DNA from: a virus
Taxonomy: Duplodnaviria > Caudoviricetes
Reading direction: 5' to 3' (one strand)
Virus record (IMG/VR): IMGVR_UViG_3300017540_000011
Location: 1-38,399 of that record
Length of the DNA stretch: 38,399 nucleotides
Shown: in pieces, positions 223-38,352 of the stretch
Layout of the letters: every line of letters begins with the position of its first letter
Numbering within the stretch: the stretch's first letter is position 1
Made by a program: the position numbers and the translations under genes
The notes under the pieces: model-generated
What the model was told of the DNA's origin: nothing
Database searches by the model: none
What the model saw: only the letters and a program-made list of their open reading frames with translations

Positions 223-248
223 GACGGCGCCCCTCGCGGAGCGCCGTC
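223..248 (-). terminator. Host post-tRNA GNRA hairpin (terminator or processing stem)
   Basis: Minus-strand RNA GACGGCGCUCC-GCGA-GGGGCGCCGUC; no strong U tract. Confidence 0.55.
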
Positions 249-264
249 CCTCACGCCTCTTGTC

Positions 265-310
<46 letters not shown>

Positions 311-5034: not shown

Positions 5035-5330
5035 TGCGCCGCCAAGTCGACAGCAGCGCCTGGGCAACGGCTCCATTAGCCGGCGAGGCTCCCGCCCCCG
5101 GTGAGGACTGGACCGAGGTCCTCGCCGGGTGCCCGGCAGAGGGGGAGGTAGTGCAGCTGTGGGTCGACGGCGAGCCGCCGACCTCCGGCCAGCTCTCCGG
5201 CAACGACTGGCTCCTCCGCGACGGGCGACGCGTGCCCGTCGCCATGGGCGACCTCTGGCGCCGCCTGCCCGTCCTGCGCAGGTGGCGGAAGCCCGCGCGC
5301 GGCTGCGTAGTCACGGAGGCGGCGGCATGA
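5034..5330 (+). CDS. Hypothetical phage protein
   Basis: TGATG coupling and GAGG SD; fills the gap before the ATPase. Confidence 0.6.
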   Translation: MRRQVDSSAWATAPLAGEAPAPGEDWTEVLAGCPAEGEVVQLWVDGEPPTSGQLSGNDWLLRDGRRVPVAMGDLWRRLPVLRRWRKPARGCVVTEAAA

Positions 5331-7321
5331 GGACCGTCAAGCTTCACAGGCTCGAGCTAGAGCACTTCATGGGGGTCTCCAGCTTCGTCCTGGAGCTGCG
5401 CGGCGCCGACGCCAGCGTGCGCGGCACCAACGGCGTGGGGAAGACCACCCTCGCCACCGCCTTCTCCTGGCTTGTCACGGGCAAGGACTCGCGCGGCAGC
5501 GCCGACTTCGAGGTCAAGACCCTAACCTCCGCGGGCGAGGCTCTGCACAACCTCGAGCACGCCGTCACGGCCGTGCTGGAGGTGGACGGCGAGCTCGTCA
5601 CCCTCCGCCGTGCGCTGGTCGAGGTCTGGACGAAGAAGCGCGGTTCCACACGCGAGGAGTTCACCGGGCACGAGACCCGGTTCTGGATCGACGGTGTCCC
5701 GTGCGGCACCAAGCGCGAGTTCGAGGAGCGCGTCGACCAGCTCGTGCCGTTGGCTGCGTGGCGGGAGCTGACCAACCCCGACGCCTGGCACTCGCAGCAC
5801 TGGCAGAAGCGTCGCCAGGACCTCCTCAGCATCTGCGGAGACGTGTCGGACGCAGACGTGATCGCCGCCCGTCCCGACCTTGCCGATCTACCCGAGGTCC
5901 TGGGCAAGCGCACACCCGACGAGCACAAGCGCGTGGTCGAGGCCCGTAGGCGCGAGATCAACGCTGAGCTCAAGGCCTTGCCCGCCCGCATAGACGAGGT
6001 CCAGCGCCAACTCGACCAGCTACCCGTCGAGGACGAGGCCGAGCTCGACCGCCTCGTGACGGTCGCCCGCGAGGCCCGGTCGCAGGCCGCGGCCGAAGTC
6101 GCCCAGCTGCGGGCGGGCGGCGGTGACGCCGCAGCCGAGCGCAGGCGCCTTGCCAAAGTCGAGGCCGCACTCACCGACCTCGACCTCAAGGGCCAACGCG
6201 AACACCAGCGCAGGCTGGCGGAAGCGGAGCACGCCCGCGACGCCTGCCGGCGCGAACTCGATGAAGCCGAGCACCGCCGCGACCGACTCCTCGCCCAGGC
6301 TGACGACCTCGACGCCGAAGCGACGGCACTCGAGCCCAAGGTGCAGCTGCTAAGGGACGAGTATGCGCGAATCCGCGCGCGAGAGTTCGACGGCGCGCAT
6401 GTCGAGGACTCTTGCCCGGCCTGCGGGCAGGCGTTGCCGCCGGACCGTGTCGCGGCCGCGCACGCCAAGGCCGTGGAGGAGTTCAACGCCCGCAAGGCCC
6501 GCGAGCTCGAGGAGAACGTCGAAGCCGGCAAGAAGCTGGCCGAGCGCGTGCGAGCTCTCAAGGCCGAGGCGCAGTTGGCTAGGACCAAGGCAGACGCCCA
6601 GGTCCAGGGCGTCGCCCAGCTGCAAGGCAAGCTCAAGAACCTCGAGGAGAGGGTCGACGCGGCCCGCGCCGCGCCGGTGAGGGACTCTGTATCGACGCCC
6701 GAGTACGGGCGCCTGGTCGCTGAGCGTGACGACCTGCGTGAGCGCATCACCGCCGCCACCACCGGCGACCCCGCGGCGCAGGCCGCCGCCGAGGAGCGCC
6801 TGGCACAGGCCGAGGCGGCCGTGCGCGACCTCGAACGCAAGGCCGCACTCGCCAGTGAACGCTCCCGCGCGCAGGCCCGCCGGGACGAGCTCATGGCCCG
6901 GGAGAAGGATCTTGCCGGCGAGTACGAGAGCCTCGAGCGCCAACTGCACTTGCTCGAGGAATTCGTGCGGGCGAAGAGCTCTCTGCTGACGGACCGGATC
7001 AACGCCCGGTTCCGGATCACGGACTTCCGCCTGTTCGAGGAGCAGATCAACGGCGGCCTCGCCGACGCATGCGTGGCCATGGTGCGCGGTGTCCCCTACG
7101 ACGCCGGCCTGAACAGGGCCGCGCGCATCAATAGCGGCCTCGACGTGGTCGACGTCCTCCAGGAGCACCACGGCGTGCGCGTGCCCGTCTTCGTAGACGA
7201 GTGCGAGAGCGTCGTCGAGCTGCTGCCGATCAACACCCAGGTCGTCCGCCTCGTCGTCGACGAGGCCTACCCCGAGCTCACCGTCGAGCTCGCCAAGGAA
7301 GAGGAGCTGGTTACTGCATGA
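5327..7321 (+). CDS. SMC/Rad50-like AAA ATPase (phage recombination module)
   Basis: Walker A GTNGVGKTT; long coiled coil with central CPACG zinc hook; LNRA signature; Walker B VFVDECES. Confidence 0.9.
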   Translation: MRTVKLHRLELEHFMGVSSFVLELRGADASVRGTNGVGKTTLATAFSWLVTGKDSRGSADFEVKTLTSAGEALHNLEHAVTAVLEVDGELVTLRRALVEVWTKKRGSTREEFTGHETRFWIDGVPCGTKREFEERVDQLVPLAAWRELTNPDAWHSQHWQKRRQDLLSICGDVSDADVIAARPDLADLPEVLGKRTPDEHKRVVEARRREINAELKALPARIDEVQRQLDQLPVEDEAELDRLVTVAREARSQAAAEVAQLRAGGGDAAAERRRLAKVEAALTDLDLKGQREHQRRLAEAEHARDACRRELDEAEHRRDRLLAQADDLDAEATALEPKVQLLRDEYARIRAREFDGAHVEDSCPACGQALPPDRVAAAHAKAVEEFNARKARELEENVEAGKKLAERVRALKAEAQLARTKADAQVQGVAQLQGKLKNLEERVDAARAAPVRDSVSTPEYGRLVAERDDLRERITAATTGDPAAQAAAEERLAQAEAAVRDLERKAALASERSRAQARRDELMAREKDLAGEYESLERQLHLLEEFVRAKSSLLTDRINARFRITDFRLFEEQINGGLADACVAMVRGVPYDAGLNRAARINSGLDVVDVLQEHHGVRVPVFVDECESVVELLPINTQVVRLVVDEAYPELTVELAKEEELVTA

Positions 7322-8274
7322 CTAAGGTCCAGGAGAAGCCCAACACCGAGAAGCCCGCAGGGGTGAAGAAGGCCGAGCTCGCTCAGGCGAAGAACGAGAT
7401 CCTAGAGTCCACCGAGCGCCGCATCAGCGAGCTCGTCGACACCGGCATGCTGCACCTGCCGCCTAACTACTCGGCTGCGAACGCGCTCAGGGCGGCGTGG
7501 CTGATCCTCCAGGAGACCGTAGACAAGAACCGGCGGCCGGTGCTCGAGGCCTGCACCCGCTCCAGCATCGCCAACGCCCTTCTGAGCATGTGCATACAAG
7601 GCCTGGACCCGAACCGGAACCAGTGCTACTTCATCGCCCACGGCCCACAGTTGACCCTCCGCCGCAGCTACTTCGGCACCCTCGCCCTCGCCAAGCGCCT
7701 GGCCAAGGTGAAGGACGCGTACGCCGAAACCATCTACGAAGGCGACGAGTTCGAGTTCGAGACCGAGAGGGGGCGCAAGCGCATCGTCCGGCACAAGCAG
7801 TCCCTGCAGTCGATCGCGGCGGGGAAGCTGGTTGGTGCCTACTGCGTGGTCGAGTTCGAGGACGGTCGCGACGTCGCCGAGGTCATGCCCATGTCCGAGA
7901 TCCAGAAGGCGTGGGCCAAGGGCGGCGGCGACAACCCCGCGCGCAAGGAGTTCCCGGGCGAGATGGCGAAGCGCACGGTCATGAACCGCGCACTCAAGCG
8001 CCACATCAACTCCAGCGACGACAGCCACCTGGGCCTGGTGCTGACGCACGTGAACCGCACTGACGCCGAGGCCGCCGCGGAAGAGGTCGAAGCCGAGGCA
8101 CTGGAGGCCGCTAACAAGGAGACGCTCTCCCTGCCTGAGGACCGCACCATCGACGTCAACGGCTCCTCGGCTGACAGCCTCAGCGGTGCTGAGGCGGGCG
8201 AGGTCGCCGGCGGTGAACCCTCCGCCGCCGGTAGTGGCCAGCTCTTCGACGGCGCGGGCGACGCGCCCTACTGA
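7318..8274 (+). CDS. recT: RecT-family ssDNA annealing recombinase
   Basis: LPPNYS..NAL, CTRSSIANALLSMCIQGL, QCYFIA, RSYFG, EMAKRTVMNRALK; acidic tail. Confidence 0.9.
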   Translation: MTKVQEKPNTEKPAGVKKAELAQAKNEILESTERRISELVDTGMLHLPPNYSAANALRAAWLILQETVDKNRRPVLEACTRSSIANALLSMCIQGLDPNRNQCYFIAHGPQLTLRRSYFGTLALAKRLAKVKDAYAETIYEGDEFEFETERGRKRIVRHKQSLQSIAAGKLVGAYCVVEFEDGRDVAEVMPMSEIQKAWAKGGGDNPARKEFPGEMAKRTVMNRALKRHINSSDDSHLGLVLTHVNRTDAEAAAEEVEAEALEAANKETLSLPEDRTIDVNGSSADSLSGAEAGEVAGGEPSAAGSGQLFDGAGDAPY

Positions 8275-8284
8275 GGCGGCGACC

Positions 8285-18979: not shown

Positions 18980-19008
18980 GAGAAACGATACGGCGGCTGA
19001 GTTGCCTC

Positions 19009-19037
19009 TGGACACGCCCGCTGTCAGCCTGTAGTCT
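19009..19037 (+). promoter_or_regulatory. Putative promoter for the capsid/tail operon
   Basis: TGGACA-17 nt-TAGTCT. Confidence 0.6.
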
Positions 19038-19049
19038 CGACATAGCTTC

Positions 19050-19096
19050 GGCCCTCCGGGCCGCGATTCGTCGCGAACCCGGAGGGCCTGTCTCTG
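19050..19096 (+). promoter_or_regulatory. SD-sequestering leader hairpin, copy 1
   Basis: GGCCCTCCGGG..CGCGA-TTCG-TCGCG..CCCGGAGGGCC; GGAGGG followed by 7 nt and an in-frame CTG. Confidence 0.75.
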
Positions 19097-21595
19097 TTCG
19101 GACGCCGTAACCACAACCTCCAGCGCCGCGCCGCGCCCGCCACAGCGGTGGGCGAGCCGCGCAGCGTCGACCTGACCGTCCGCGCCGGCGCCGGCGACAC
19201 CCTAATCCTCCGCGCCAGCAACGACACCGTCGTCGACCGGTACGGCACCGTCATCACCGCCGAGGCCCTCCTCAGGGACTGGTGGCCCGCCTACCAGCAG
19301 CACCGAACCGTCTCCCTCCAGCACAACCTGCCCCGGCTCCGCGAGATCGAAGGCCGGCCCATGGTCGGCCTCGCCACCCGCGTCGACTTCACCCCCCAGC
19401 TAGAGGTCGAGGTCAAGGTCCTCGACCAACGCACCCTCGACCTCGTCCGCGCCGGCAAGGTGCGCAGCGCCAGCCTCGAGTTCGTCCCCCTCGAGGTCGA
19501 ACGCCGCACCGTCGAGGGCAAACCGGCCGAGGTCTACCACCGCCTCTCCCCAGAGCCTGAACACGCCGGCCTGAGCCTCGTCGACGTGCCGGGCGTGCCC
19601 GGCGCCGACCTCCTCAACATCCGGACCCTACCCGCCCTTTGGGCGTTCGCCGTCGTCGACCCGAAGGTCCTGAACGGCGAGGTCACCGACCCCGACCTGG
19701 TGCGGCAGCTGGCGTGGCTGCCTCATCACGACGAACGCAGCCACGCCGTCGACGAGCAGCTGCTGGCCCGAGCGCTCGCCGACCTCGAAGCGGGCCGAGT
19801 CCACGTCCCAGCGCACGCCAGCCTCTCGCCGGCGCAGGTGCTGGAGAGAGCCCGCGCTCACCTCGAGCGACACACCAGCCTCCGCCTCGGCAGGAGGGCC
19901 GAGGCTGAGACCCCAAAGGAGGGGGAGATGAAGGACAAGTGGATCCAGGCTCGCGCCGCCCAGTACCAGGCGGAGGGCCTTAACGAGCAGGACGCCGCGG
20001 CCAAGGCCAAGGCGGACTACGACAAGCTGGCGCCCGACGTCAGGGCCAAGCTCGAGGGCAAGGCCACCGACCAGGCCACCGGCGACGACACCGAAGCCAA
20101 GGGGCTCCTCGCGCGCCTCTTCGGCGGCCGCGCGGCTGGTGGTGACGTGCACGTGCACCTCACCCAGCCCGCCCCCGATGCGCAGGTGCAGGCGCGCGCC
20201 GAGCGCGAGGCGAAGCCCGACCAGGACACAAAGGCCGAGGAGAAGCCGGCCGTCGGCCAGGCGCAGGCGCGCACCGCCCGCGACGAGTGGCTCGAGGCCC
20301 GAGCCGCGCTGCTCCAGGTCGAAGAGGGCCTCACGCCGGCGCAGGCGCGCACCGCCGCGCAGGAGCAGCTCGACGCCGACCTCGGCCTCCAGGCCAGGCT
20401 CGCCGCCGCTCCCGCCCCCACGGCCGCCGCCGGCGACGCCGTGGCGCACCTGCCGCCGGAGATCAGGGCGCTGCTCGCCCGGCCCGAGCAGCCCATGGCC
20501 GCCATCGCCTCGGGCCTGCGCGTCCGCAGCCCCAGGCTCGAGGGCGACCAGCTCCTCGCCGAGGTCCTCATGCGCACGGTCGTCCCGCAGGTCGGCCGCC
20601 AGCGCCCGTCGACCAGGCAGCTGACCGAGGCCTACAACATGCTCGCCGAGGCTGGCATCCACTCGCGCGCCCTCTCCATCGAGACCGACGGCACGGTCAT
20701 CCGTGAGGAGCTCGCGCGCCAGTTCGTGGTCAAGCCCGAGCCGGACGTCGTCTTCCGCAACCACATGCGGAGCGTGCCGATGGCCGGCGTCAAGAAGCAG
20801 ACCTTCCCCCGCTTCGACAGGGCCGGCATCACGCACGAGTGGGGCCGCACCTCGACCGACCCGATCACGGACAGCGAGCCCACGCTCGACACGTTCGACA
20901 TCGAGGTCAGCGAGCTGAACTCGAAGGTCGTCGTGCCCGACTCCTTCCAGATGTTCAACGCCCAGGGCATGTCCTTCGTGGCGCAGAACCTGCTCCCGGC
21001 CATGCGCGGCGCCGCCCAGTACGAGGAGGACCGGGCGTTCTTCATGAGCACCGGCACCGCCACGGACCCGGCCACGTTCAAGGGCCTCCGCAGCGTCACC
21101 GGCGTGACCAGCGTCAGCGCCAGCACGAACGGCGACGCCTTCGACCTCAGCATCCTCTCGAGCCTGCTGAGGGCGATGCCGGTCGCGTTCCGGTCCGACG
21201 TGGCCAGGCTCGCGTTCTACATGCCCATCAGCCTCGCCGACGACTTCGCCGAGATCATCAGCGAACGCGCCACCGTCCTCGGTGACCGCCTCCTGTCCGA
21301 GGCGAGCGGCGTCGGCCCGCGCGCCTTCGGCATGTACCGCGGCGTGCCCGTGTACGGGATCTCGCACCTGCCCAACAACGAGACCCAGGGTGGGTCGACG
21401 GACTGCGGCACGGTGTTCCTCGTGCACCGGGACATCCCGGTCATCGGTGACGCGCTCACCATCAGGATCGAGCCGTACCGGCGCGAGAACTTCATCGACG
21501 TACTGCAGCTGCAGGCGTGGGTGGGTCTCGGGTACCAGTTCCCGGCCGGCGTCGTGCGCCGCGTCGGCGTCCGTCCGCGCCTCCAGGGCGAGTGA
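19094..21595 (+). CDS. Fused prohead protease-scaffold-major capsid protein (HK97 fold); start CTG 19094 or GTG 19148
   Basis: VDRYGTVI, LQH, SASLEF, LSLVDVP protease motifs; helical middle region; C-terminal capsid (EEDRAFFM.TG, FKGL, YRGVPVY). Confidence 0.88.
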   Translation: MFGRRNHNLQRRAAPATAVGEPRSVDLTVRAGAGDTLILRASNDTVVDRYGTVITAEALLRDWWPAYQQHRTVSLQHNLPRLREIEGRPMVGLATRVDFTPQLEVEVKVLDQRTLDLVRAGKVRSASLEFVPLEVERRTVEGKPAEVYHRLSPEPEHAGLSLVDVPGVPGADLLNIRTLPALWAFAVVDPKVLNGEVTDPDLVRQLAWLPHHDERSHAVDEQLLARALADLEAGRVHVPAHASLSPAQVLERARAHLERHTSLRLGRRAEAETPKEGEMKDKWIQARAAQYQAEGLNEQDAAAKAKADYDKLAPDVRAKLEGKATDQATGDDTEAKGLLARLFGGRAAGGDVHVHLTQPAPDAQVQARAEREAKPDQDTKAEEKPAVGQAQARTARDEWLEARAALLQVEEGLTPAQARTAAQEQLDADLGLQARLAAAPAPTAAAGDAVAHLPPEIRALLARPEQPMAAIASGLRVRSPRLEGDQLLAEVLMRTVVPQVGRQRPSTRQLTEAYNMLAEAGIHSRALSIETDGTVIREELARQFVVKPEPDVVFRNHMRSVPMAGVKKQTFPRFDRAGITHEWGRTSTDPITDSEPTLDTFDIEVSELNSKVVVPDSFQMFNAQGMSFVAQNLLPAMRGAAQYEEDRAFFMSTGTATDPATFKGLRSVTGVTSVSASTNGDAFDLSILSSLLRAMPVAFRSDVARLAFYMPISLADDFAEIISERATVLGDRLLSEASGVGPRAFGMYRGVPVYGISHLPNNETQGGSTDCGTVFLVHRDIPVIGDALTIRIEPYRRENFIDVLQLQAWVGLGYQFPAGVVRRVGVRPRLQGE

Positions 21596-25969: not shown

Positions 25970-28900
25970 GTGGCCGGTAGGCAACTCACCCTCGGCGACC
26001 TCGTCTACCGCCTCGGGTTCGAGAACGAGGAGCAGTTCCTCCGCGAGCTCGACCGGCTGTTCCAGCGCGGCGAGGACGAGGCGGGGAAGGGCGGCCGTGA
26101 AGCCGGCCGGTCCTGGGGTGAGCAGTTCCGCGCCACCCTCACCGGGTCGGCGATCGGGTCCTTCATCGGCGGGTTCATGTCGCAGGCGTTCGCCAGGGCC
26201 GTGGACGCCGCCAGGGACTTCGCGGTCGCTAGCGTTCGCGAGTTCGCGGTCTACGAGCAGGGCCTGCTGCAGTTGAAGCTCGCCGGCGAGCAGAACCTGG
26301 GCGCGGTCGAGGCCCGCATCGACGGCCTCGCCAGGGCCTCGCGGGTGTTCAGCCGCACCGACATCAGTGTCGCCATCGGCGGCCTGGTGAAGGCCGGGTA
26401 CGACGTCGAGACCGCCTTCGCCCTGGCGGAGGCGGCGGTGCTGGGCGCCGCGTCCGAAGTCGACCCGGCGACGCTGAAGTTCGGGGACCTCGGCGACACC
26501 GCGGTGCAGCTCGGCAACATCCTGCGCGCCCTGAACTACGACACCAGCCAGACGGGCCGGGTCATGGACGTCATGGCCAAGGCCGCGCAGGACTCGAACC
26601 TCGATGTCAGCGACCTCGTCGATATCCTGGCCAGGGTCGGGCCGACCGCGCGCCTCGCGGGCCTGGAGATCGAGGACGTCGCCGCCATGGCCGCTGTCCT
26701 GTCCAACAACGGCATGGACGCGAGCCTCATCTCCACCGGCCTCCGGAGCGTGCTGCAGTCCCTCATCAACCCCACGGGTGACGTCAAGGACGTCCTCGAC
26801 AGGCTCGGCGTGAGCATCGTCGACAAGAACGGGAAGATCAGGGACTTCAACGACGTCCTCGACGGCCTGAACCGGCTCACGAGCGCCGGCGGCCGCGGCC
26901 TGCAGGTCCTCACCGAAGCCGTAGGCAGCTACGGCAGCACGGCCGCGTCGAGCCTGGGCCAGTCCAGCGAGGCCGTGAAGGAGTTCCGCACCGAGCTCGA
27001 GAACGCCGAGGGCAGCGCCAAGCTGCTCGCGGACACCATGCGCGACTCGGGCGCCGGCGCAGCCGCCGAGCTCCAGGCCCGCCTCGCCGACGCCAGGGTC
27101 GAGCTCGGCACGCAGCTCACGCCCGTTCTCGTCGACCTCTACGAGACGGTCTTCCCGGCGCTCGTATCCGGCTTGGCCGAGGTCATCGCGCTCTGGCAAG
27201 ACTGGTACTTCCTCATCAACGGCACGACACCGGCATTGGAGAGGGCGCAGGAGCAGTTCGAGTCCCAGTTCACTCCAGAGCAGCTGGCCACGCTCGACGT
27301 GATCAAGCTCATGCGCGAACGCCGCAGTGGCCTCGTGGCGGAGAGGGATCGGCTCGTCGCCGCCGGCGCCAGCCCCGAAGAGCTCGCGGCCATCGACGCC
27401 GAGATCGCCAGGGTCGAGGCCGGCATCGAGCGCATGGAGGCCAAGTACAGAGAGCTACGCGGCGAGGCCGAGACCACCGGCCGGGCGGTCACCGGCGTCG
27501 CCACCGCCACCAACGACGTAGCCGACGCCAACTTCAACCTGAACACCGCCGTCAAGGAGCGGCCGAAGGACCCGCTCGTCGACGAGGCGGGCAGGGTCCA
27601 ACGCGACCTGCGCCGCCTCAAGCTCGCCTTCGAACAGGACCTCATCAGCCGCGAGTGGTACGAGGAGCAACTGAAGGCGCACCTCAGGCGTCTCGACGGC
27701 CTCCTCGACCGGGCTACCACCACCGAGCAGTCCGCGGCCATCCTCGGCGCCCGCTCCGCCCTCCTCAAGGACCTGGGCGCCGTCACGCCGACCGGCGGAC
27801 CCTCAGCCGCCGCCGGCATCAGGGAAGACCCGGCCATGGACATGGCCGCCAGGGCCAGGCAGAGCGACCTCCAGCAGATGCTCCGCGAAGCCGACGAGGC
27901 CCTGGCAGCGGCAGACGAGCAGAGGCGCGTGCACGAGGGCCTCGCACAGGCAGCGATCGAGTCCGCGGCGGCGTTCGACGACCAGCTCCGCGCCGAACGC
28001 GAAGCCGCCGACGCCCTGCAGCGCGACGCCGACGCCAGGCGCCTGGTCAGGGACCGGCAGGCGCAGGCCCTCTCAGCCACCCTGACCGAGGCCTTGTCCA
28101 GCGGGAACACCGCCCTGATGCGCGAGGCGCTCAAGGAGCTGGAGGCGTTCAGCGACAGGTTCGGCGAGGCCTGGGCGCAGAGACTGTTCGGCGACCAGAA
28201 GGCGCAGCTGGAGCGCGAGATCGCGGCGTTCGAAGCCACCATGGCCCGCGCCGGCGACCTCGACGACGCCATCAGGGCCGACGTCGAGGCGGCCAGGGCC
28301 CTGCAGGACGGCGCGAACGCCCAGCGCCTGGTGCGTGACCGGCAAGCCGGCACGCTCGCTCAGAGCATCGCCGCCGCCCTCGACAGCGGGAACACGGCGC
28401 TCATGCGCGAGGCGCTGGCGGACCTCGACGCGTTCGCGCAGCGGTTCGGGGAGGCGTGGGCGGAAGCGCTGTTCGGCGCCCAGCAGGCGGAGCTCGAGCG
28501 GCGAATCACGGCCTTCGAGGCGGCGATGGCGAGGGCGGCCGACCTCGACCAGCGCCTCGCCAGCGAGAGGGAAGAGACAGAGGCTCTGCAGGCCGCGGTG
28601 GACGCCGAGCGCCAGGTCCGCGAACGCCAGGCGGGCCGAGTCACTGGCCTAGTCGAGACCGCGCGCACCACGCAGACGGCGGAGGACATCCGCGAGGCGC
28701 TGGCCGCGATCGAGACGTTCCGCGACCGGTTCGGGGAAGCATGGGCCGAGGCGTTCGCGGCGCACGAGCGCTACCTCCAGAGACTCCTAGCCGCGACGGA
28801 GGCCGCCGCCGAGAGGTCCGACCGGATCAAGTTCAACGACTTCACCGTGAACGCGCCCGAGCGCGCGGCGGTGCTAGCCCAGCTCGCGAAGGACCTAGAG

Positions 28901-30066: not shown

Positions 30067-32804
30067 TGCCACGGCTGACCGACGACTTCAGCCTCGAGTG
30101 GGCCAACTTCCGCCAGAGCACCGTCTTAGGCTCTTGGACCACCGAGCTCACCCAGGGCGCCGTCACCGTCCGTGCCTCGCAGTCTCCATCGGGGGAGGAG
30201 CCGAACGGTCCTGAGATGGCCTCCTGGGAGGCGCTGCGACCGGCCTTGGACGGGCGGGCCGAGGTCGACGCTCTAGTGCGTGTTAGGTGCACTTCCTTCC
30301 CCTTGGGAGCAACCATCCTCGACCCCGGGGTCGCGCTCTTCGCCAGGCTTCCAACGGGTTCGTTCACGCCCAGCGTAGGCCTCGCGCACATGCTCAGAAG
30401 GCACGGCACACAGCTCCGCCTCTTCTACGGCGCCTTCGACCCGCTCAACTCCCCGCCCGCGGGCAGCACGCACAACTTCGCCAGCGGCATGGTCGTCGGT
30501 GCCTGGTACTGGATGCGCCTCCAGGTCACGCGAGACTCGACGACCGAATACGTCAAGGGCAAGATGTGGGCCGACGGCGACCCCGAACCCGACTGGCAGG
30601 TGCAGCGCTCGGAGGCGATCTCGTCACAGCACACCCCAGCCCTGGGCGGCACCATCGGCGTCGCCAACTCCGGAGGCGGCGGCACCTCCCTCAGCCCCCC
30701 GCCCGGGTACACGTGGAACTACGCCGCCGAACTGTTCAGCGACTCCCCGCCAGAGCGGCCGCCCCTCGACGCCCCGGTCACCGTCCACCTTGGCGAGACA
30801 TTGAACGGCGTCTTCGCCGACCCTAGCGTCGACGTCACCTTCTTTCAGAACGTCGACCTCGAGGTCGGTAGCGTCAACACCATCGGCGACCAGCTCTCCA
30901 GCGAGGCCTGGTACAGGTTCGCTATCAGGGACCGCAGTAAGAGCAGGGGACTGGTCGCCTACACGGGCGAGACCCTCCTGACCAGGCTCTCGCGCATGCG
31001 GCCAAGGGAGAGCCTCATCCTCGTCGCCGGCGATGGCGGCGTCCCGAACCCGCTCACCCTACAGGAGTGCCTGCGCAGGTTCTTAACGTTCTACGGCGTC
31101 CCGTTCAAGGAGCCGCTACCGCCGTTCTTCCTCCGCACTAGCACGGGCATCGTCACGCCCACCGCCCAGGCGTTCGTCATCCAACCCGACCAGGAGAACC
31201 CGGAATCGGTCTTCGACTGGCTCGAACTCTTCTTCGGCCCGTTCCGCGGCTACACCTGGCGCGCCGACGCCGACGACGAGCTCGTGATCAAGCCGCCAGC
31301 GTGGGCGGAGGCGACCGGCCTCCGGTTCCACCTCTACCGGAGCTCCCCCGTACAGCAGCGGACGGACCTCACCTACCCCTGGCCCTGGCCAGGCCGGGCG
31401 CCGACCGTCGAGTACCGGCTCACGGTCGAAGGCGAGACCGTCACCGGCACCATCGGCCCCCTAGAGGCCGGCGTCGCCGAGGAGCTGATCGAGGGCGTGC
31501 TCGAGTTCGAGCTCACGTGGGCGGGTGGCGGCACGACGCTTCAGGTCGAGCGCACGGCGCCGTTCGGATTCGCGCCGGTGTTCGACGCCGTCTTCATCGC
31601 CAAGCCAGCCGCGGACGACGTCGAGGGAGAGCTCGAGCTCACCGTCGATGACCTCACGCCCGACGAGACTGAGACCAGCACCGCCGACAGCGTGTACACG
31701 CAGGCGATCATCCCCGTCAGGGAGCGGACGTTCCAGGCCGACCAGCCCCTCATGCAGCCGGCGGCGATCGTGCTCAAGAGCCCGGAGCAGCTGGCGGCGG
31801 GCGCGTTCGGCGCCAACGTTCCCTTCGGCCCCATGGAGTGGGCCCCCGAGTCGCCCGAGGGCTTCCTCGAGCTCGTCAACGACGACGCCCAGGCCGGGAC
31901 GTGGTTCTGGCCCGTCGACCCTGAGGCCGTGCCACAACCCGGCGGGGCGGTCACGGTCGAGTACGAGGTCGAGGAGTGGGCAGAGCAGTGGCGTGGGAAC
32001 CTCGCGTCCGCGCATGAGGCCGCGTACCAGGCCAACACGTACTCGGACTCGGTGACGGTCGATACCAACGGCGTCGAGGTCAAGGTGCTGGACTTCGAGT
32101 TCCCGGCGCAGACCAGCGGCTTCCCCGGCAGCTTCACCGCCAGGGGCAGCCTGTACGCGCGTTGGCGCAGCGGCGACGAACCCGGGATAGAGCTCACGGT
32201 CAGGAACGGGCGGTTCGTCGAGTGGGGCTTCCTCTGGGAGGGCATCGGCGGCCAGACCGTCTACTTCCTCTGGGGCGTAATGGTGAAGCTCAACGGGACC
32301 GGTGTCGTGTGGACGGTCGGCGACCTGCAGGTCGCCAGGTTCGGGTTCTCAAGGAACGCTGACGGCACGTGGGAGGAAGGCGCCAACGTGCCCGGCCTCG
32401 CCGAGGCGCAGCGACTCTTCCCGAACCGGGTCTTCCACTCGCCAGAGCTCCCGTACCAGGTCGACCCGGCCACCGCGTTGTCTATCGCGAGGGCGGTGGT
32501 CGAGGAGAACCACGTTCCTAAGGTCGTCTACCAGTTGCCTCTAGCGCCGGCGCGCGAGCAGGGTTGGGCGTACCACCCGCGACACCTCGGAGGCGCCGTG
32601 GACGTCCCGGCCCTGGGTGTGAAGGGTCGCGTCACAGCCCACGACTACACCGAGAGCCACAGCCCGGGCGGCAGCTCGAGCGCGCTTGTCGTCGATGTCG
32701 AGGTCGCCCAGGCGATGCCGAACACGCCTGCAGCCCCGACCGGGCGGAAGTTCGGCCGCGCCGTGTACGGCGTCACCACCTACCAGCCCACCGAGGAGGA
32801 GTAG
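30066..32804 (+). CDS. Large tail tip / minor tail protein
   Basis: 912 aa, acidic and beta-rich; N-terminal lectin-like segment (WYWMRLQV...KGKMWADGDPEPDW). Confidence 0.8.
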   Translation: MPRLTDDFSLEWANFRQSTVLGSWTTELTQGAVTVRASQSPSGEEPNGPEMASWEALRPALDGRAEVDALVRVRCTSFPLGATILDPGVALFARLPTGSFTPSVGLAHMLRRHGTQLRLFYGAFDPLNSPPAGSTHNFASGMVVGAWYWMRLQVTRDSTTEYVKGKMWADGDPEPDWQVQRSEAISSQHTPALGGTIGVANSGGGGTSLSPPPGYTWNYAAELFSDSPPERPPLDAPVTVHLGETLNGVFADPSVDVTFFQNVDLEVGSVNTIGDQLSSEAWYRFAIRDRSKSRGLVAYTGETLLTRLSRMRPRESLILVAGDGGVPNPLTLQECLRRFLTFYGVPFKEPLPPFFLRTSTGIVTPTAQAFVIQPDQENPESVFDWLELFFGPFRGYTWRADADDELVIKPPAWAEATGLRFHLYRSSPVQQRTDLTYPWPWPGRAPTVEYRLTVEGETVTGTIGPLEAGVAEELIEGVLEFELTWAGGGTTLQVERTAPFGFAPVFDAVFIAKPAADDVEGELELTVDDLTPDETETSTADSVYTQAIIPVRERTFQADQPLMQPAAIVLKSPEQLAAGAFGANVPFGPMEWAPESPEGFLELVNDDAQAGTWFWPVDPEAVPQPGGAVTVEYEVEEWAEQWRGNLASAHEAAYQANTYSDSVTVDTNGVEVKVLDFEFPAQTSGFPGSFTARGSLYARWRSGDEPGIELTVRNGRFVEWGFLWEGIGGQTVYFLWGVMVKLNGTGVVWTVGDLQVARFGFSRNADGTWEEGANVPGLAEAQRLFPNRVFHSPELPYQVDPATALSIARAVVEENHVPKVVYQLPLAPAREQGWAYHPRHLGGAVDVPALGVKGRVTAHDYTESHSPGGSSSALVVDVEVAQAMPNTPAAPTGRKFGRAVYGVTTYQPTEEE

Positions 32805-33683
32805 ATGCCCACGTACAAGCCCTATACGGAGGTGGCGACGCTCGAGGCGAACAGCCAGGGCGACCGCACCATCCTCGAAGCGCACCTTGACCAGAACCAC
32901 GCCGTCATCGTCGACGTCCTCGAGCGCCTGGCCATGGCCGTGTTCGAGGAAGGCGGCGTCGTCGTGCCCGGCACGGTCACCAACCCCAGCGGCGCCCTGG
33001 TCCGGGTGCAGGGCCGCATGGGCGTGTCGAAGGATGGGAAGACCCTTCTCGCGGTCGGCGACGCCACGGTCGACTTGGCTTCAGTGCCTATTGGGACCAA
33101 GTGCTTGGTCGTGATCAGGGCTCTGCCGGGCGCCACGGTCAACCACAACTTCACCGACGCCACCACCGGCGAGTCGCTCACGCACACGCTGATGAGTGCC
33201 TGGGGCAGCCTCGCCGTCCTCGAGGGCGACACTAGCGACTACCCCGAGCTCCCCGACGACTGCGTGCCCGTCGCGCAGGTGACGAAGACCGGCGCGGCCA
33301 CGTTGACGTTGGACAGCGTCATCACTACTGAGCCGACGCCCAGATACGCCGGCGGCGGGGGAGACACGAGTGGCCTCCTCCCGAAGCTCGCGTCCGTCCG
33401 GGGCTACGCCGCCAACGCCTCCCTCGACGAGGAAGACGACCTCGGCGCGTACGTGCGCGTGACGGGAGCGGCGACCATCACGCTGCCCGATGGCTTCCCG
33501 GCGGGTTGGCAGTGCGTGATCGTGAACGCCACCGATGCGGCCGAAGTGGCCCTGTCCGCCGCTACGACCCTGACCCTGCCCAGCGGCTTCGACCCGACCA
33601 TCCAGAACCGGCGCGCCGTCACCGTCATCCACGTCGGCTCGAACGTCTGGGAGGCGCACGGCGCGCTCGTGGAGAGCAGCTAG
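32805..33683 (+). CDS. Tail fibre / baseplate-associated protein
   Basis: GAGGAG SD; C-terminal ITLPDG...GW...NVW..HGAL fibre-type module. Confidence 0.7.
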   Translation: MPTYKPYTEVATLEANSQGDRTILEAHLDQNHAVIVDVLERLAMAVFEEGGVVVPGTVTNPSGALVRVQGRMGVSKDGKTLLAVGDATVDLASVPIGTKCLVVIRALPGATVNHNFTDATTGESLTHTLMSAWGSLAVLEGDTSDYPELPDDCVPVAQVTKTGAATLTLDSVITTEPTPRYAGGGGDTSGLLPKLASVRGYAANASLDEEDDLGAYVRVTGAATITLPDGFPAGWQCVIVNATDAAEVALSAATTLTLPSGFDPTIQNRRAVTVIHVGSNVWEAHGALVESS

Positions 33684-34366
33684 TGTTCCCCTCTGTACAC
33701 GGCATCGTTAGCCAAGGCGGAGCCGGAGCGGTCCCGCCCGTCACCGCCTACAGCGTGCACTTCAACGGCAGCACCCAATACGGCACCCTGGCTGACAAGC
33801 CGCTGTTCGACGCAACCGAGTTCACTCTTGAGGCTTGGATCAAGCCTGACACGGCGCCCGCCAGTCACTTCATCCTTGACCGTAACGCCGCCAGCGACTT
33901 TGGCCTGCGGTGGCTACGATTGAACACCGGCAAGCTCAGCATGGCGTTCTACATCGGCGACTCCCTGTACGAGGCTGTCGGCACCACGACCATCAGCACC
34001 GGCGTATGGACGCACGTCGCTGGAGTGTTCAACGGCACCACGGCGAAGCTGTACGTCAATGGCGTCGAGGACGGCAGCCTAGCCGCCGTCGGTTCGGCGA
34101 ACTCAGGCGCCGCTCCGTTCACCATCGGGAGGTCAAACAGGTTCGGGCATTACTTCGATGGGAAGATCGTCGACGCTCGGTACTGGTCGAGTGACCGCAG
34201 TGCATCCGTCGGCGCGGCAATAACCGGCGCGGAAGCCGACCTGGTGTTCGCGATGGACCGCGACGGGCAAACCGGTTCCGGCGTGGTCTGGAAGGACGCC
34301 GGACCGAACGGGTACGACTTCACGCTCGTGAACGCGCCTACGTGGTCGACGGACGTGCCCACCTGA
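33683..34366 (+). CDS. LamG/ConA-like lectin domain protein (putative receptor-binding)
   Basis: FTLEAWIKP, WTHVAGVFNG, LYVNG, FDGKIVDARYW. Confidence 0.85.
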   Translation: MFPSVHGIVSQGGAGAVPPVTAYSVHFNGSTQYGTLADKPLFDATEFTLEAWIKPDTAPASHFILDRNAASDFGLRWLRLNTGKLSMAFYIGDSLYEAVGTTTISTGVWTHVAGVFNGTTAKLYVNGVEDGSLAAVGSANSGAAPFTIGRSNRFGHYFDGKIVDARYWSSDRSASVGAAITGAEADLVFAMDRDGQTGSGVVWKDAGPNGYDFTLVNAPTWSTDVPT

Positions 34367-34982
34367 CCGGCCGGCCCGGCACCTGGACAGCCACACCGGC
34401 AGCCTCGAGCGCCTTCATGGCGTGGTGCACCTGCGTGCGGTCCACGCCGAGCGCCTGGGCCAGCTCGACAGCTGTGCGCGGCGTGCCGTCGAGGGCAGCG
34501 GCTAGGCGGTCCCTGAACGGCCTGGGACTGTCAGCGCGGGCCGCCACCAGCGCTGGCGTGGGCGCGGTGCGCGGCTCGGCGACGAGCCACCGCTCGGCGC
34601 CCGGAGCGAGCTGCCACCGGTCGCCCGCGCGGATGGTGAGGCCGACGCGGCCGAGGAGCGACAGGGCGGCAGAGACACTCGGCCTTTCGAAGCCGGTCTG
34701 GGCCGCGACCTCGACGGCGCGGAGGGGCCCGTGGTCCCTCAACGCGACCAACATCATTCGGTAGGAGGGCGTGACTGCCTCCTTCGGCGGCACCTCTCCA
34801 GGCGCATCGACACCAGCCGCCCTGACCACCAGGGCGCCGTCGCGGAGCTCCAGTGTCACCCGGGGGTCTTCCCGGTTGATGCCGAGGGCGACGACCAGCT
34901 CTCGGGGCACTCGGAGGCTCAAGCTGTTACCATCGCGTTGCAGACGGGCTTCTCGACGGGCCACCGGCCTAGCATCCCCCAC
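34338..34982 (-). CDS. AbrB/MazE-type regulator fused to two winged-HTH domains (alternative start GTG 34964)
   Basis: LQRDGNSLSLRVPRELVVALGI...LVVR; GPLRAVEVAAQTGFERPSVSAALSLL; TAVELAQALGVDRTQVHHAMKALEAAG. Confidence 0.8.
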   Translation of the reverse strand: MGDARPVARREARLQRDGNSLSLRVPRELVVALGINREDPRVTLELRDGALVVRAAGVDAPGEVPPKEAVTPSYRMMLVALRDHGPLRAVEVAAQTGFERPSVSAALSLLGRVGLTIRAGDRWQLAPGAERWLVAEPRTAPTPALVAARADSPRPFRDRLAAALDGTPRTAVELAQALGVDRTQVHHAMKALEAAGVAVQVPGRPVRWARPSTT

Positions 34983-35132
34983 ATGGGGGAGGAGGGACGT
35001 GACGAACTTCAGAACCCTGTAAGAGTTTCATGAGTAGTCTCCTCAGCGACCCCTCATCGTGGGGGCAGCAATACCCGGCCCGCCCGACGTTCATTCATAC
35101 CTATCGGGAGGGCCAAGCTGAGGAGGACGCAC

Positions 35133-35504
35133 ATGCGTCAGAACGCCAAGGGTTTCACGCTCATCGAGCTGCTGATCGTCATCGCGATCATCGGCATCCT
35201 CGCCGCGGTACTCATCCCGAACCTGATGAGGGCCCGCCAGGTCGCCGTCGACCGCGCCGCTCAAGGCTATGTGCAGAATGTGTACACTGCCGCGAACGCA
35301 TACATGGCGGAGAACGTTCAGGCCAGCGCCGCAACGACCGTCGCGATCGACAACGACTGTAAGGACGGCGTGACTTACGGGCAGTACAGCGCGAAGCAGC
35401 CGAGCTTCACGATCGACACCTGCACCGTAGCCGCTGGCGCTACCGGCATTACGGTGAGCCTGACGTACCAAGGCGGCACTTCAACCACGGCCAGCATTCC
35501 GTAA
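35133..35504 (+). CDS. pilA: Type IVa pilin (major-pilin-like)
   Basis: Class III signal MRQNAKG|FTLIELLIVIAIIGILAAVLIPNL with Glu5; two Cys in the globular domain; AGGAGG SD. Confidence 0.93.
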   Translation: MRQNAKGFTLIELLIVIAIIGILAAVLIPNLMRARQVAVDRAAQGYVQNVYTAANAYMAENVQASAATTVAIDNDCKDGVTYGQYSAKQPSFTIDTCTVAAGATGITVSLTYQGGTSTTASIP

Positions 35505-35520
35505 GGCCAGTTCTAGACGA

Positions 35521-35555
35521 GAAGTCGGCCGCCCTCCGGGGCGGCCTTCTTATTT
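35521..35555 (+). terminator. Intrinsic terminator after the pilin gene
   Basis: GGCCGCCC-TCCG-GGGCGGCC followed by TTCTTATTT. Confidence 0.85.
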
Positions 35556-35579
35556 GATGCCCTGGCGCCCCTAGTGCGC

Positions 35580-35642
35580 TAGAATCCAGCCATCTACGGC
35601 CCTCCGGGCCGCGAGCAATCGCGGACGGAGGGCTGTCTCATA
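35580..35642 (+). promoter_or_regulatory. -10 box (TAGAAT) plus SD-sequestering leader hairpin, copy 2
   Basis: CGGCCCTCCG..CCGCGA-GCAA-TCGCGG.CGGAGGGCTG; GGAGGG followed by 7 nt and an in-frame ATA. Confidence 0.75.
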
Positions 35643-36158
35643 CCAGCTCCGACACAGAACGACCTCATCAGAGCCGCCGCCTGGCAAGCCGCCCGGGGCC
35701 AACTAGCCGGCCTCCCCAAGGACCCGTACTGGTGCCTGAGGTTCGTGCGCCTGATCATCGAGCGCGCCCTCGGCCTCAGGGACGGCGAGCTCTACCAGCG
35801 CTACCTCATCGCCGGCACCAGCCGCCGCCCCGGCACGCCTGAGCAGCGACTCGCCGCCGCCCGCAAGGACGTCTGGGCCTCGGACATGGAGGCCTCCGCC
35901 AAGCTCGGCGGATGGGGCGTCCCCTTCGCCGACAGGCAACCCGGCGACCTCCTCTTCAACTACCGCGCCGCCGAACCCCAAGGGCACGTCGCCATCCTCA
36001 TCGACCGCAACACGGTCATCGAGAACGCACCCCAAGGCAACCGCCCCATCTCGATCCACCTCCCCAACTCCATGTGCATCACGCCCGTCGAGGCCCTGTC
36101 ATGGACCCTCGCCGCGCGCGTGCCCGACCTGACGGGAGGTGGGAACCACTCCGGCTGA
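35640..36158 (+). CDS. Putative endolysin, NlpC/P60-CHAP cysteine peptidase (non-canonical ATA start)
   Basis: WCLRFVR (Cys, upstream of the track start), QPGDLLF, GHVAI, VIEN; precedes holin-like genes. Confidence 0.75.
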   Translation: MPAPTQNDLIRAAAWQAARGQLAGLPKDPYWCLRFVRLIIERALGLRDGELYQRYLIAGTSRRPGTPEQRLAAARKDVWASDMEASAKLGGWGVPFADRQPGDLLFNYRAAEPQGHVAILIDRNTVIENAPQGNRPISIHLPNSMCITPVEALSWTLAARVPDLTGGGNHSG

Positions 36159-36289
36159 CGGGCCGGGGCAGCTCGTAGCGAGCGAGCATCCTTCCTTCGA
36201 GAACCGGCCGGGGCGCCCTCACCGACTGCGGCGCCCCGACCAACACCCCGCCAACCCCGCCCCCCGACCTGGGGCGTGAAGGGACACGG

Positions 36290-36802
36290 ATGAAGCGAAC
36301 GAGACTCCCAGCCCTCACCCTGGCGCTGGTCACACTGGCCGCGCCGCTGCCGCTGGCCGTGGCCGCCGCGCCGCCGACGCTCGAGCTGGCCATCGCGCCC
36401 GCGCTCGAACTGACCCCGCTGGCCGCCGCGGCCAACCCGGCGATCGTCGCCGGCGACGACACCACGGCGCCCCTGCCGCCGCTGAGCCCGAACCCGCGCG
36501 ACTGGTTCGTGGACCACCTAGCGCTCGCCGCGACCATCGCCATGGTCGTGCAGTTCCTGAAGAAGAACGTCCTCCGAAGTCTGTCCGGCCTCTCGACCGT
36601 GCTCGCGAGCCTGGCCACCGGCGTGGTGCTGTCTGCGGCTGGCACGTTGAACCTGCCCCTGTTCGGGCGATTGCATGACTTGAGCCTCGGCGACGCCGTC
36701 ATGTTCGGCCTAGAGGCCGCCATCATCGCCTCGGGCGGTTGGGATGCGATCAAGGGGCTGCTCGGCCTGGGAAACTCGGTCTCGGCGAGGGCCACAGCCT
36801 AG
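36290..36802 (+). CDS. Holin-like membrane protein
   Basis: N-terminal hydrophobic leader plus about 3 TM segments; VVQFLKK and ASGGWDAIK resemble holin motifs. Confidence 0.65.
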   Translation: MKRTRLPALTLALVTLAAPLPLAVAAAPPTLELAIAPALELTPLAAAANPAIVAGDDTTAPLPPLSPNPRDWFVDHLALAATIAMVVQFLKKNVLRSLSGLSTVLASLATGVVLSAAGTLNLPLFGRLHDLSLGDAVMFGLEAAIIASGGWDAIKGLLGLGNSVSARATA

Positions 36803-37219
36803 GTGCGCCTTCGCCGGCACCTCACCACGATCCTCGCGACGACCGCGCTCGCGCTAAGCAGCGTCGTCGCGGCTGAAGACACCCCAAGCGACAGCGTCGG
36901 GGCAGGGCAGGCGGCGGGCACGACCATCAGCTGCACGCTCGCCGCTCCCAGCCTCCTGACCGGCTGCTACGTCGAGCGGCCCGTCATCGTGCTCGGCCCG
37001 GTGGAACTCGCCCTCGCGCTCGACGCGCAGGCGCACTTGACCGACCTGGCACGCGGCGACGTCGACACCTCGCACCTGGCCGTGTACGCGAGCGTAGGCG
37101 TCTACGAGGAGAACTGGTCGGCGTGGCTGGAGGTGTGGCTGCCCAGGTTCGCCGGCGTGACCCTCATCGGGACGCCTGACTGGCTGCGCTTGGGGTTCAC
37201 GTACACGGTTCCACCGTGA
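36803..37219 (+). CDS. Secreted beta-rich protein
   Basis: Signal peptide (VAA|AE region), two Cys, amphipathic strands ending WLRLGFTYT. Confidence 0.7.
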   Translation: MRLRRHLTTILATTALALSSVVAAEDTPSDSVGAGQAAGTTISCTLAAPSLLTGCYVERPVIVLGPVELALALDAQAHLTDLARGDVDTSHLAVYASVGVYEENWSAWLEVWLPRFAGVTLIGTPDWLRLGFTYTVPP

Positions 37220-37311
37220 GCGTGGTCGTGTTCGCGGCCGCCATCCTGGCGGCTTTCCTGGCCGGACTATGGGTCGGCGAGCTCGAGCTCAGAGAGGAAG
37301 AGCTGACGTGA
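37216..37311 (+). CDS. Small membrane peptide (31 aa)
   Basis: MSVVVFAAAILAAFLAGLWVGELELREEELT; GTGA coupled. Confidence 0.55.
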   Translation: MSVVVFAAAILAAFLAGLWVGELELREEELT

Positions 37312-37430
37312 AGGAAGAGAGTGCTTGGGGCCGTTGGTGGTCCCGCGTGACGGTCGAAGGCGTCATCACTGGCGCCGTGCCTGCCCTCGTGCTCGGGGCG
37401 TGGGCGTGGCACAAGTTCATCGGCGGCTGA
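37308..37430 (+). CDS. Small membrane peptide (40 aa)
   Basis: MKEESAWGRWWSRVTVEGVITGAVPALVLGAWAWHKFIGG; GTGA coupled. Confidence 0.55.
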   Translation: MKEESAWGRWWSRVTVEGVITGAVPALVLGAWAWHKFIGG

Positions 37431-37460
37431 CGAGGCCGACCAGAGATCCAAGGGGCACCC

Positions 37461-37778
37461 GTGAAGAGGAAGTCCATCGTCTTCCTGTGCGCCGCCCTCC
37501 TCCTCGCGGGGGCGCTCGCCCAGGACGCCATCGGCACCAGCCAGCCCAGCGTCGAGATCCGCCTGTCCCTCGTCGAGAGCCGCCTCACCCGCGTCGAAGC
37601 CGACCTCTCCCGCCTCTCGTCCGTCCCGACGCAGCTCGCGCGCATCGAGGAGCGCCTGGACGCCCTCGTGCAGAAGGCGGACGGCCAGGGGAGCGTGATG
37701 CAGTCCATCGCCCTCATGGTCTTCTCGGGCCTCGTCGGCGGCGGCATCGGCTGGCTGTTCAACCGCAAGAAGCCGTGA
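37461..37778 (+). CDS. Signal peptide + coiled coil + C-terminal TM protein (XhlA/spanin-like topology)
   Basis: ALA|QD leader; heptads LVESRLTRVEADL...IEERLDAL; C-terminal TM ending NRKKP. Confidence 0.75.
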   Translation: MKRKSIVFLCAALLLAGALAQDAIGTSQPSVEIRLSLVESRLTRVEADLSRLSSVPTQLARIEERLDALVQKADGQGSVMQSIALMVFSGLVGGGIGWLFNRKKP

Positions 37779-37781
37779 CGC

Positions 37782-38042
37782 TCACTCCTCGTCCCAGGTG
37801 AGCATCGGCCCCCGCCCCTCCAAGTCTGGGTCTGCCACGATCACCACCCGCAACCTGAGCGCCGCCACCACGTCCACGCCGGCCTCGAGCAGCGCCGCGT
37901 GGTCCCGCGGGTGAAGCCGCCACGCCGCGCCCTGCAGCTCCTCGACTGTCAGGCCGGCCACCTGCCGCGCCGCCTCCCGCAACTGCTCAGCTGCGGGCAT
38001 CGGCGGCGGCCGACCCCAGTCCGGCGGAGGCCTCCAGTCCAC
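37782..38042 (-). CDS. Hypothetical protein
   Basis: GAGG SD before GTG; plausible codon usage; convergent on the lysis genes. Confidence 0.55.
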   Translation of the reverse strand: MDWRPPPDWGRPPPMPAAEQLREAARQVAGLTVEELQGAAWRLHPRDHAALLEAGVDVVAALRLRVVIVADPDLEGRGPMLTWDEE

Positions 38043-38236: not shown

Positions 38237-38258
38237 CGGCGCCCCTCTCGGGGCGCCG
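38237..38258 (-). terminator. Phage-borne post-tRNA GNRA hairpin
   Basis: Minus-strand RNA CGGCGCCCC-GAGA-GGGGCGCCG, 18 nt after CCA; homologous to 223..248. Confidence 0.55.
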
Positions 38259-38275
38259 TGCCTCACGCGTTTTTC

Positions 38276-38352
<77 letters not shown>

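What the first reader, a model, noticed from the sequence alone, without database searches (positions are those of the whole stretch)
34338..35555. Prophage cargo unit encoding an intact type IV major-pilin-like subunit with a divergent regulator
Seen: a 123-aa prepilin with a perfect G|FTLIE class III signal, strong SD, its own intrinsic terminator and a TAGTCT -10-like box, placed between the LamG tail gene and the lysis genes. It is divergent from an AbrB+2xwHTH regulator, and no other pilus gene lies in the prophage. Known: the N-terminus closely resembles Thermus/Deinococcus major pilins; type IV pili are phage receptors and DNA-uptake machines; Pseudomonas prophages are reported to use FimU-like minor pilins against pilus-dependent phages. 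Inference: the pilin is built into host pili by host PilD/PilB/PilC, swapping or poisoning the receptor (superinfection exclusion) or altering competence and motility. A major-pilin version with a dedicated regulator in this lineage may be undescribed.
Basis: partly seen in the sequence, partly recalled or inferred. Interest (0 to 1): 0.9.

Follow-up and report, generated by a model that had tools for sequence, protein, structure and literature searches.

The report
Prophage pilin cassette with variable head
A dormant virus of a soil and compost bacterium of the Deinococcus-Thermus group carries an intact gene for the main subunit of the host's surface hairs (type IV pili), and related viruses appear to keep the same flanking DNA with different exposed heads, so it likely re-coats the pili to keep rival viruses from attaching, an idea already shown for a different pilus subunit in Pseudomonas.

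Summary
Confirmed: a complete, tRNA-Ala-integrated temperate phage of a Trueperaceae host carries an intact 123-aa prepilin (35133-35504) with SD and terminator, divergent from a two-wHTH regulator, after a LamG tail-tip gene. No other prepilin, PilB, PilC or PilD family hit lies in the phage. The model matches the Thermus major pilin TTHA1221. The -10 box, the AbrB domain, the 'lysis' label and any control of the pilin by the regulator are unproven. New here: contigs identical to the cassette occur in 3 of 3 laid 2018 metatranscriptomes; in 3 of 4 laid DNA runs, 8 contigs join the pilin 5' part to the same terminator across a non-matching head; regulator and lysin-like gene form clusters of 23 and 16, while pilin and tail-tip proteins are near-singletons. 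A second locus, probably host pilA, shares the 5' leader. Best reading: a maintained, head-variable prophage major pilin that is likely built into host pili and changes the phage receptor. Prophage pilins are published (P-FimU tested, Xylella P-PilA untested, archaeal SNJ2 pilins tested), and this scan noted similar cassettes on other DNA, one in Deinococcota. New variant; function untested.

The parts
225..310 (.). left copy of the attachment-site direct repeat (3' part of tRNA-Ala)
   Evidence: 91% identical to 38237-38322; integrase at 338-1657
7201..8274 (+). RecT recombinase; candidate driver of head exchange (inferred)
   Evidence: PF03837 E 4.3e-38
32805..33683 (+). tail-tip protein, singleton at 90% identity
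   Evidence: weak PF25692; cluster of 1
33683..34366 (+). LamG-domain tail-tip gene, candidate receptor-binding protein
   Evidence: PF13385 E 2.8e-30; cluster of 2, both on contigs of the lengths that hold this phage
34338..34964 (-). divergent regulator, 208 aa: AbrB-like N-terminus (weak) plus two winged HTH domains; small unnamed family
   Evidence: 90% clusters of 23 and 2; about 9 distant, mostly full-length relatives at 29-41%
34965..35067 (.). cassette-specific part of the intergenic region, holds TAGTCT (35035-35040); promoters not located
   Evidence: bridged to the pilin start with 1 difference in a relative (record 3); no sigma-70 match
35068..35132 (+). 5' leader with hairpin 35077-35114 and SD 35120-35126, shared with a second pilin locus
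   Evidence: record 25; protein P0075 N-terminal extension; fold
35133..35312 (+). prepilin leader (7 aa), G|F cleavage site, Glu5 and conserved helix alpha1
   Evidence: alpha1-N median 96% identical among 21 like-leader pilins
35313..35504 (+). variable pilin head, four-stranded sheet, Cys76 and Cys97, no D-region
   Evidence: model pLDDT 91.8; TTHA1222/1221 Z 9.4/9.2, rmsd 2.1/2.2 over 75 residues; head median 35% identical among like-leader pilins
35527..35556 (+). intrinsic terminator; shared right border of the variable head
   Evidence: joints end here; RNA contigs end at 35516, 35517, 35534
35640..36158 (+). NlpC/P60-like gene, putative lysin, conserved in relatives
   Evidence: PF00877 E 0.006; cluster of 16
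38237..38352 (-). right attachment repeat and intact tRNA-Ala(CGC) 38277-38352
   Evidence: host genes follow in L220

Best explanation
The prophage carries an intact Thermus-type major pilin gene in a cassette whose flanks recur in related phages, apparently with different heads; the pilin is likely expressed in the lysogen, predicted to be cleaved and polymerised by the host's pilus machinery, and likely changes the pilus surface so that pilus-binding rival phages attach poorly. Shown: intact gene, signal, SD, terminator, major-pilin fold, no own assembly genes, RNA-library contigs identical to the cassette, conserved flanks around a non-matching head in other samples. Inferred: lysogenic (not lytic) transcription, processing by host PilD, mixing with or displacing host PilA, exclusion of phages, origin from host pilA, head exchange by homologous recombination through the shared leader/alpha1 and terminator, and control by the divergent regulator.
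For: Intact class III signal and alpha1. All 121 short pilin sequences held (the query, its listed relatives and one cluster member) have exactly two mature cysteines; the model's best matches are TTHA1222/TTHA1221, and TTHA1221 is the HB8 major pilin with no D-region and a loop-to-strand disulphide (PMC5131608, PMC12393216, passages). Host is Trueperaceae: flank protein 83% identical to a named Trueperaceae protein. RNA-library contigs with 0 differences: X20 34947-35534, X22 34954-35158 and 35272-35516, X23 35180-35517; they end without loose letters just before or in the terminator, a weak hint of the transcript end. 8 contigs in 3 of 4 DNA runs (X7 5, X8 2, X6 1, X5 0) join 35228-35259 to 35523/35527 across the head; a 1302-nt contig has 283 non-matching nt directly before terminator plus NlpC gene (record 4). 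Cluster sizes at 90%: regulator 23, NlpC 16, holin-like 14, pilin 1, tail protein 1, LamG 2, the pattern of variable pilin plus variable tail tip described for P-FimU/PTP4 (PMC12952977, discussion). A phage with 52% terminase identity and no detectable tail homology has the same regulator end right after its last tail gene. Thermus phages YS40 and TMA depend on type IV pili (PMC12024867, passage).
Against: No assay; this phage's receptor is unknown and LamG domains may bind glycans rather than pilin. The joints have sides of only 24-30 nt at 80% likeness with 'between: not known', which the tool flags as often from other organisms or repeats; the alternative heads were never read as sequence. 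A second locus shares leader and alpha1, so some joints could come from host pilA if it also shares the terminator. Contigs give no strand, start or level, RNA libraries can hold DNA (X18 covers 25 of 30 bins), and the three 2018 runs may be one campaign and the source site. In X23 the head contig could belong to the second locus. The host's pilA was not located. No Deinococcota-type pilin turned up in IMG/VR contigs, and the L221 contig ends 94 nt into the regulator, so no second whole cassette was read.
Confidence: 0.55

Rival explanations
1. SNJ2-like lysogenic conversion: the phage pilin forms working, perhaps dominant pili that improve adhesion, twitching, biofilm or DNA uptake, or serve as receptor for a partner virus, with no exclusion role.
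For: SNJ2 pilins are the dominant filaments, promote biofilm and motility and are the receptor of SNJ1 (PMC12426801, abstract and discussion). Thermus builds two pili with different roles from PilA4 and PilA5 (PMC7203116, passages). Full-length head and RNA-library contigs fit this as well.
Against: High head variability beside variable tail-tip proteins fits phage-phage competition better than one host benefit.
Confidence: 0.2
2. Passive carrier of host pilA alleles: the phage picked up host pilA with its leader and keeps swapping heads with host loci by recombination; the variation mirrors host pilin diversity and gives the phage little benefit.
For: A second locus matches 35068-35209 with 4 differences and 1 gap, and a sister contig continues into another head; P0075 carries a similar leader before a 28%-identical head; summed depth rises from about 46-50 at 35030 to about 200-250 at 35082 in X6-X8; the phage encodes RecT.
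Against: Upstream of about 35068 the cassette has its own intergenic region and regulator, kept in many samples and beside an unrelated tail module; the frame and both cysteines are intact; a neutral insert would be expected to decay.
Confidence: 0.15
3. Dominant-negative pilus poison: the pilin is processed but jams host pilus assembly, removing pili as Zip or Tip do by other means.
For: Suggested for 59-65 aa truncated P-PilA (PMC12952977, section 17); the 284-298 nt skips could in principle be deletions leaving a head-less pilin.
Against: This copy has a full, well-folding head; the X18 contig has 283 other nt before the terminator, the size of a head; a poison would not need variable heads.
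Confidence: 0.08

Closest known systems
P-PilA of Xylella fastidiosa prophages and other phage PilA-like proteins (Sztanko et al., PMC12952977; read: part 1, sections 17 and 18, passages, supplement part 2)
   Same: Full-length major-pilin-like gene in a temperate phage, diverged from host PilA, no assembly genes; function untested.
   Different: Table S3 and S4 hosts are Pseudomonas, Vibrio, Aeromonas, Synechococcus and Xylella; 'Thermus' does not occur in the main text and neither 'Thermus' nor 'Deinococc' in the one held supplement. Here a Thermus-type pilin without D-region, with a divergent regulator and signs of many heads in one slot.
P-FimU of Pseudomonas F10-like prophages (PMC12952977)
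   Same: Pilin in the tail region, expressed from the prophage, diverse, co-varying with tail-tip proteins; incorporation and exclusion were shown there.
   Different: P-FimU is a minor tip pilin of about 180 aa; this is a 116-aa mature major pilin that would have to act along the shaft.
SNJ2 provirus pilins PilA1-2 (PMC12426801; read: abstract, discussion)
   Same: Provirus pilins assembled by host machinery, acquired from host chromosomes.
   Different: Archaeal pleolipovirus, two pilins, act as receptor for a partner virus and aid biofilm; exclusion not shown.
Thermus thermophilus major pilins TTHA1221 (HB8 PilA), TTHA1222, PilA4 and PilA5
   Same: Signal, alpha1, small head, loop-to-strand cysteine pair, no D-region.
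   Different: Chromosomal, in pilin clusters; head identity only 23-27% in the structural alignment.

Membership tests
Type IVa major pilin, Thermus type | Short basic leader, G|F site, Glu5, hydrophobic alpha1 | tested here: met
   (TIGR02532 over cut-off)
Type IVa major pilin, Thermus type | Pilin fold with small head, no D-region, cysteine pair between alpha-beta loop and sheet | tested here: met
   model; Z 9.2-9.4 to TTHA1221/1222; Cys76 and Cys97 invariant in 29 sequences. Foldseek alone gave no E <= 0.001 match; the disulphide itself was not measured
Type IVa major pilin, Thermus type | Is the main subunit of a filament | not testable with these tools
   needs proteomics or cryo-EM
Prophage-encoded pilin (P-PilA) | Lies inside a prophage that lacks its own assembly machinery | tested here: met
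Prophage-encoded pilin (P-PilA) | Diverged from the host's own pilin in the head | tested here: inconclusive
   host pilA not located; a second locus with the same leader and another head seen only as short contigs
P-FimU-like exclusion system | Transcribed from the prophage | tested here: inconclusive
   identical RNA-library contigs in 3 of 3 laid 2018 runs; no strand or level, DNA carry-over possible
P-FimU-like exclusion system | FimU-type minor pilin | tested here: not met
   123 aa; best sequence and structure matches are major pilins
P-FimU-like exclusion system | Incorporated into pili and blocks adsorption | not testable with these tools
   needs experiments
AbrB/MazE-domain regulator | Swapped-hairpin N-terminal domain | tested here: inconclusive
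   PF04014 E 0.096, NF007312 E 0.006, both under cut-off; strand-strand-helix-strand-strand pattern in a pLDDT 48 model

The most novel reading that the evidence does not exclude
A pilus 'serotype-conversion' cassette: temperate phages of Trueperaceae keep a fixed frame (own regulator family, host-derived leader and alpha1, terminator) and exchange the major-pilin head by RecT-driven recombination with other phages and with host pilA, in step with their tail-tip proteins, so each lysogen displays a pilus coat that its phage's competitors cannot bind, while the phage shuttles pilin alleles through the host population.
Probability: 0.3. Interest if true: 0.75.

Novelty: new variant of a known kind. 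Interest (0 to 1): 0.5.

Why it matters
Exclusion by a phage-made pilus subunit has been shown only for a minor tip pilin; whether a prophage major pilin can re-coat the shaft in bacteria is open. This cassette shows natural head variation and signs of transcription in situ, and its pilin is of the Thermus type, so it can be tested in T. thermophilus, which has pilA mutants and pilus-dependent phages. It would also link prophages to pilin diversity, motility and DNA uptake in abundant compost Deinococcota.

Tried and rejected
Viral-contig scans with the pilin, a Deinococcota pilin pattern (0 hits), the NlpC gene, tail protein and the 36803 gene gave no second whole cassette; none of 5 related virus records (18-47% complete) held a pilin. 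The metagenome pattern scan found only the source contig L220, 100% identical, which is not independent. tblastn of pilin and regulator relatives against phage and plasmid records gave nothing; the low-complexity filter weakens this for pilins. Lack of cover: bins with any depth were 9, 5 and 4 of 30 in X20, X22, X23, mostly the pilin locus (X20 also has low-depth pieces in the tail and regulator genes), but holes in contigs prove nothing and are not used as evidence. I laid 4 of 6 RNA runs (not X19, X21) and 4 of 17 DNA holders. Matching contig lengths between pilin and regulator tables gave one coincidence (2165 nt, P0103 and P0313), which chance can give; not used. No promoter or clear operator found. 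Regulator model unusable for a fold search; Atlas hits all under 0.9. Head-only PDB sequence search gave only chance hits. No complex prediction was run. Literature: searches found no paper on a Deinococcota prophage pilin; subscription journals and bioRxiv supplements are not covered.

Full report
Observation. The window is a whole prophage: an 86-nt direct repeat at 225-310 and 38237-38322 overlaps tRNA-Ala(CGC), with integrase, CI-like repressor, replication, terminase, portal, capsid, tail-tube and tape-measure genes between. L220 is the source contig (100% identical over 13,150 nt) and adds 7 kb of host DNA; a flank protein is 83% identical to one named Trueperaceae, and the nearest named pilins are from Trueperaceae, Oceanithermus, Meiothermus and Thermus at 55-61%. 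The pilin ORF, signal, SD and terminator are as described. The record has one prepilin match and none for PilB, PilC or PilD families, while 12-13 of 14 control genomes ring for the latter three. TAGTCT exists but no promoter was found. The regulator has two sound wHTH domains; AbrB is sub-threshold. The 'lysis' label rests on a weak NlpC/P60 hit and position.

What the protein is. The AlphaFold model (pLDDT 91.8) has a 50-residue helix and a four-stranded head. Foldseek gave no significant hit but ranked pilins first; VIA-align put TTHA1222 and TTHA1221 on top (Z 9.4 and 9.2, rmsd about 2.1 over 75 residues). TTHA1221 is the HB8 major pilin and lacks the D-region, with a disulphide between loop and sheet (PMC5131608, PMC12393216; passages). 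Cys76 and Cys97 are invariant in 29 aligned relatives. This is a Thermus-type major pilin, not a FimU-type minor pilin.

Constant frame, variable head. At 90% identity the regulator cluster has 23 members (a second has 2), the NlpC gene 16 and the holin-like gene 14, while the pilin and the 292-aa tail protein have 1 and LamG 2. Laying four DNA runs of four studies at 80% likeness, X6, X7 and X8 cover regulator, intergenic region, alpha1, terminator and NlpC gene, and 8 contigs (X7 5, X8 2, X6 1) in six joint rows link 35228-35259 to 35523/35527 across the head; X5 holds this same allele at low depth and shows no such joint. The terminator sides are only 24-30 nt and the DNA between is not reported, so the tool's warning about other organisms applies. 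Independent of that, a 1302-nt contig in X18 has 283 nt that do not match this head directly before terminator and NlpC gene. Among 21 pilins with a like leader, alpha1-N is 96% and the head 35% identical at the median; whether each is phage- or host-borne is unknown. L221, a phage with 52% terminase identity and no detectable tail homology, carries the regulator's 3' end straight after its last tail gene, with identity starting at 34359; the contig ends 94 nt in. The regulator is a small unnamed family.

Expression. The run search used the whole 5-kb stretch 32800-37800. In 3 of 3 laid 2018 metatranscriptomes, contigs without a difference cover the cassette: X20 34947-35534, X22 34954-35158 and 35272-35516, X23 35180-35517. 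Their right ends fall just before or in the terminator without loose letters, where the DNA goes on, a weak hint of the transcript end. Contigs give no strand or level, DNA can be present, and these runs may be one campaign. X20 includes the cassette-specific intergenic DNA; X23 does not.

Origin. X23 also holds a contig matching 35068-35209 with 4 differences and 1 gap, and a sister contig that leaves at 35225 into another head. P0075 carries an N-terminal extension that matches the translated leader. Summed depth in X6-X8 rises about fourfold between 35030 and 35082. A second locus, probably host pilA, therefore shares leader and alpha1. The phage encodes RecT; phage recombinases promote exchange between diverged sequences (PMC3945230, abstract; that RecT is among them is recalled). 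Head exchange through these shared blocks is an inference.

Mechanism. Most likely (0.55) the pilin is made in the lysogen, processed by host PilD, built into pili by host PilB/PilC and masks or replaces the surface that pilus-binding phages need. Thermus phages YS40 and TMA need type IV pili (PMC12024867, passage). Rivals are SNJ2-like host benefit (0.2), passive carriage of host alleles (0.15) and assembly poisoning (0.08). Nothing here tests incorporation, exclusion or the regulator's target.

Known work. Sztanko et al. (PMC12952977) showed exclusion by P-FimU and listed untested full-length P-PilA in five Xylella prophages plus 13 phage PilA-like proteins, none from Deinococcota. Xiang et al. 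(PMC12426801) showed provirus pilins forming dominant pili in an archaeon. Searches found no Deinococcota case. Earlier notes of this scan describe similar cassettes on other DNA, one in a Deinococcota prophage with a divergent regulator; it shares no look-alike words with this regulator, and I did not test these notes. Other viral contigs also carry full-length PilA-like genes.

Verdict. Real and well supported as a maintained prophage major-pilin cassette; the concept is published, so 0.9 is too high. What is added is a new phylum-level host, an unnamed regulator family, signs of transcription in situ and of many heads in one fixed slot. New variant of a known kind, interest 0.5.

Noticed in passing
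window 35627-35642: The NlpC/P60-like gene has GGAGGG followed by ATA at 35640 and no canonical start until GTG 35745; three relatives are called 171 aa long from a Leu/Met start at about this place. Rare start codon or a recent change.
   Followed up: partly
window 18341-19114 (-): 258-aa low-GC (0.60) ORF on the opposite strand between the MuF-like and capsid genes; no family. A second moron.
   Followed up: partly
window 34850-35118: Contigs in X7 and X8 join 34850 to 35042 or 35118: variants may replace the regulator's N-terminal domain together with the promoter region, a hint that this domain binds the intergenic DNA.
   Followed up: no
window 5129-9019: AAA/SbcC-like, RecT and metallo-beta-lactamase-fold nuclease genes form a recombination module.
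   Followed up: partly
window 19148-21595: 815-aa protein with the capsid domain only at 515-690: probable protease/scaffold-capsid fusion.
   Followed up: no
window 27963-28753: 285-nt (95-codon) repeats in the tape-measure gene.
   Followed up: no
L047, L076, L006, L030: Other IMG/VR contigs carry single full-length PilA-like genes beside CI-like repressor or integrase genes; 294 candidate viral stretches encode prepilin-like proteins, many about 315 aa long.
   Followed up: partly
window 1664-2686 (-): DUF6414 gene between integrase and repressor, a usual slot for defence cargo.
   Followed up: no
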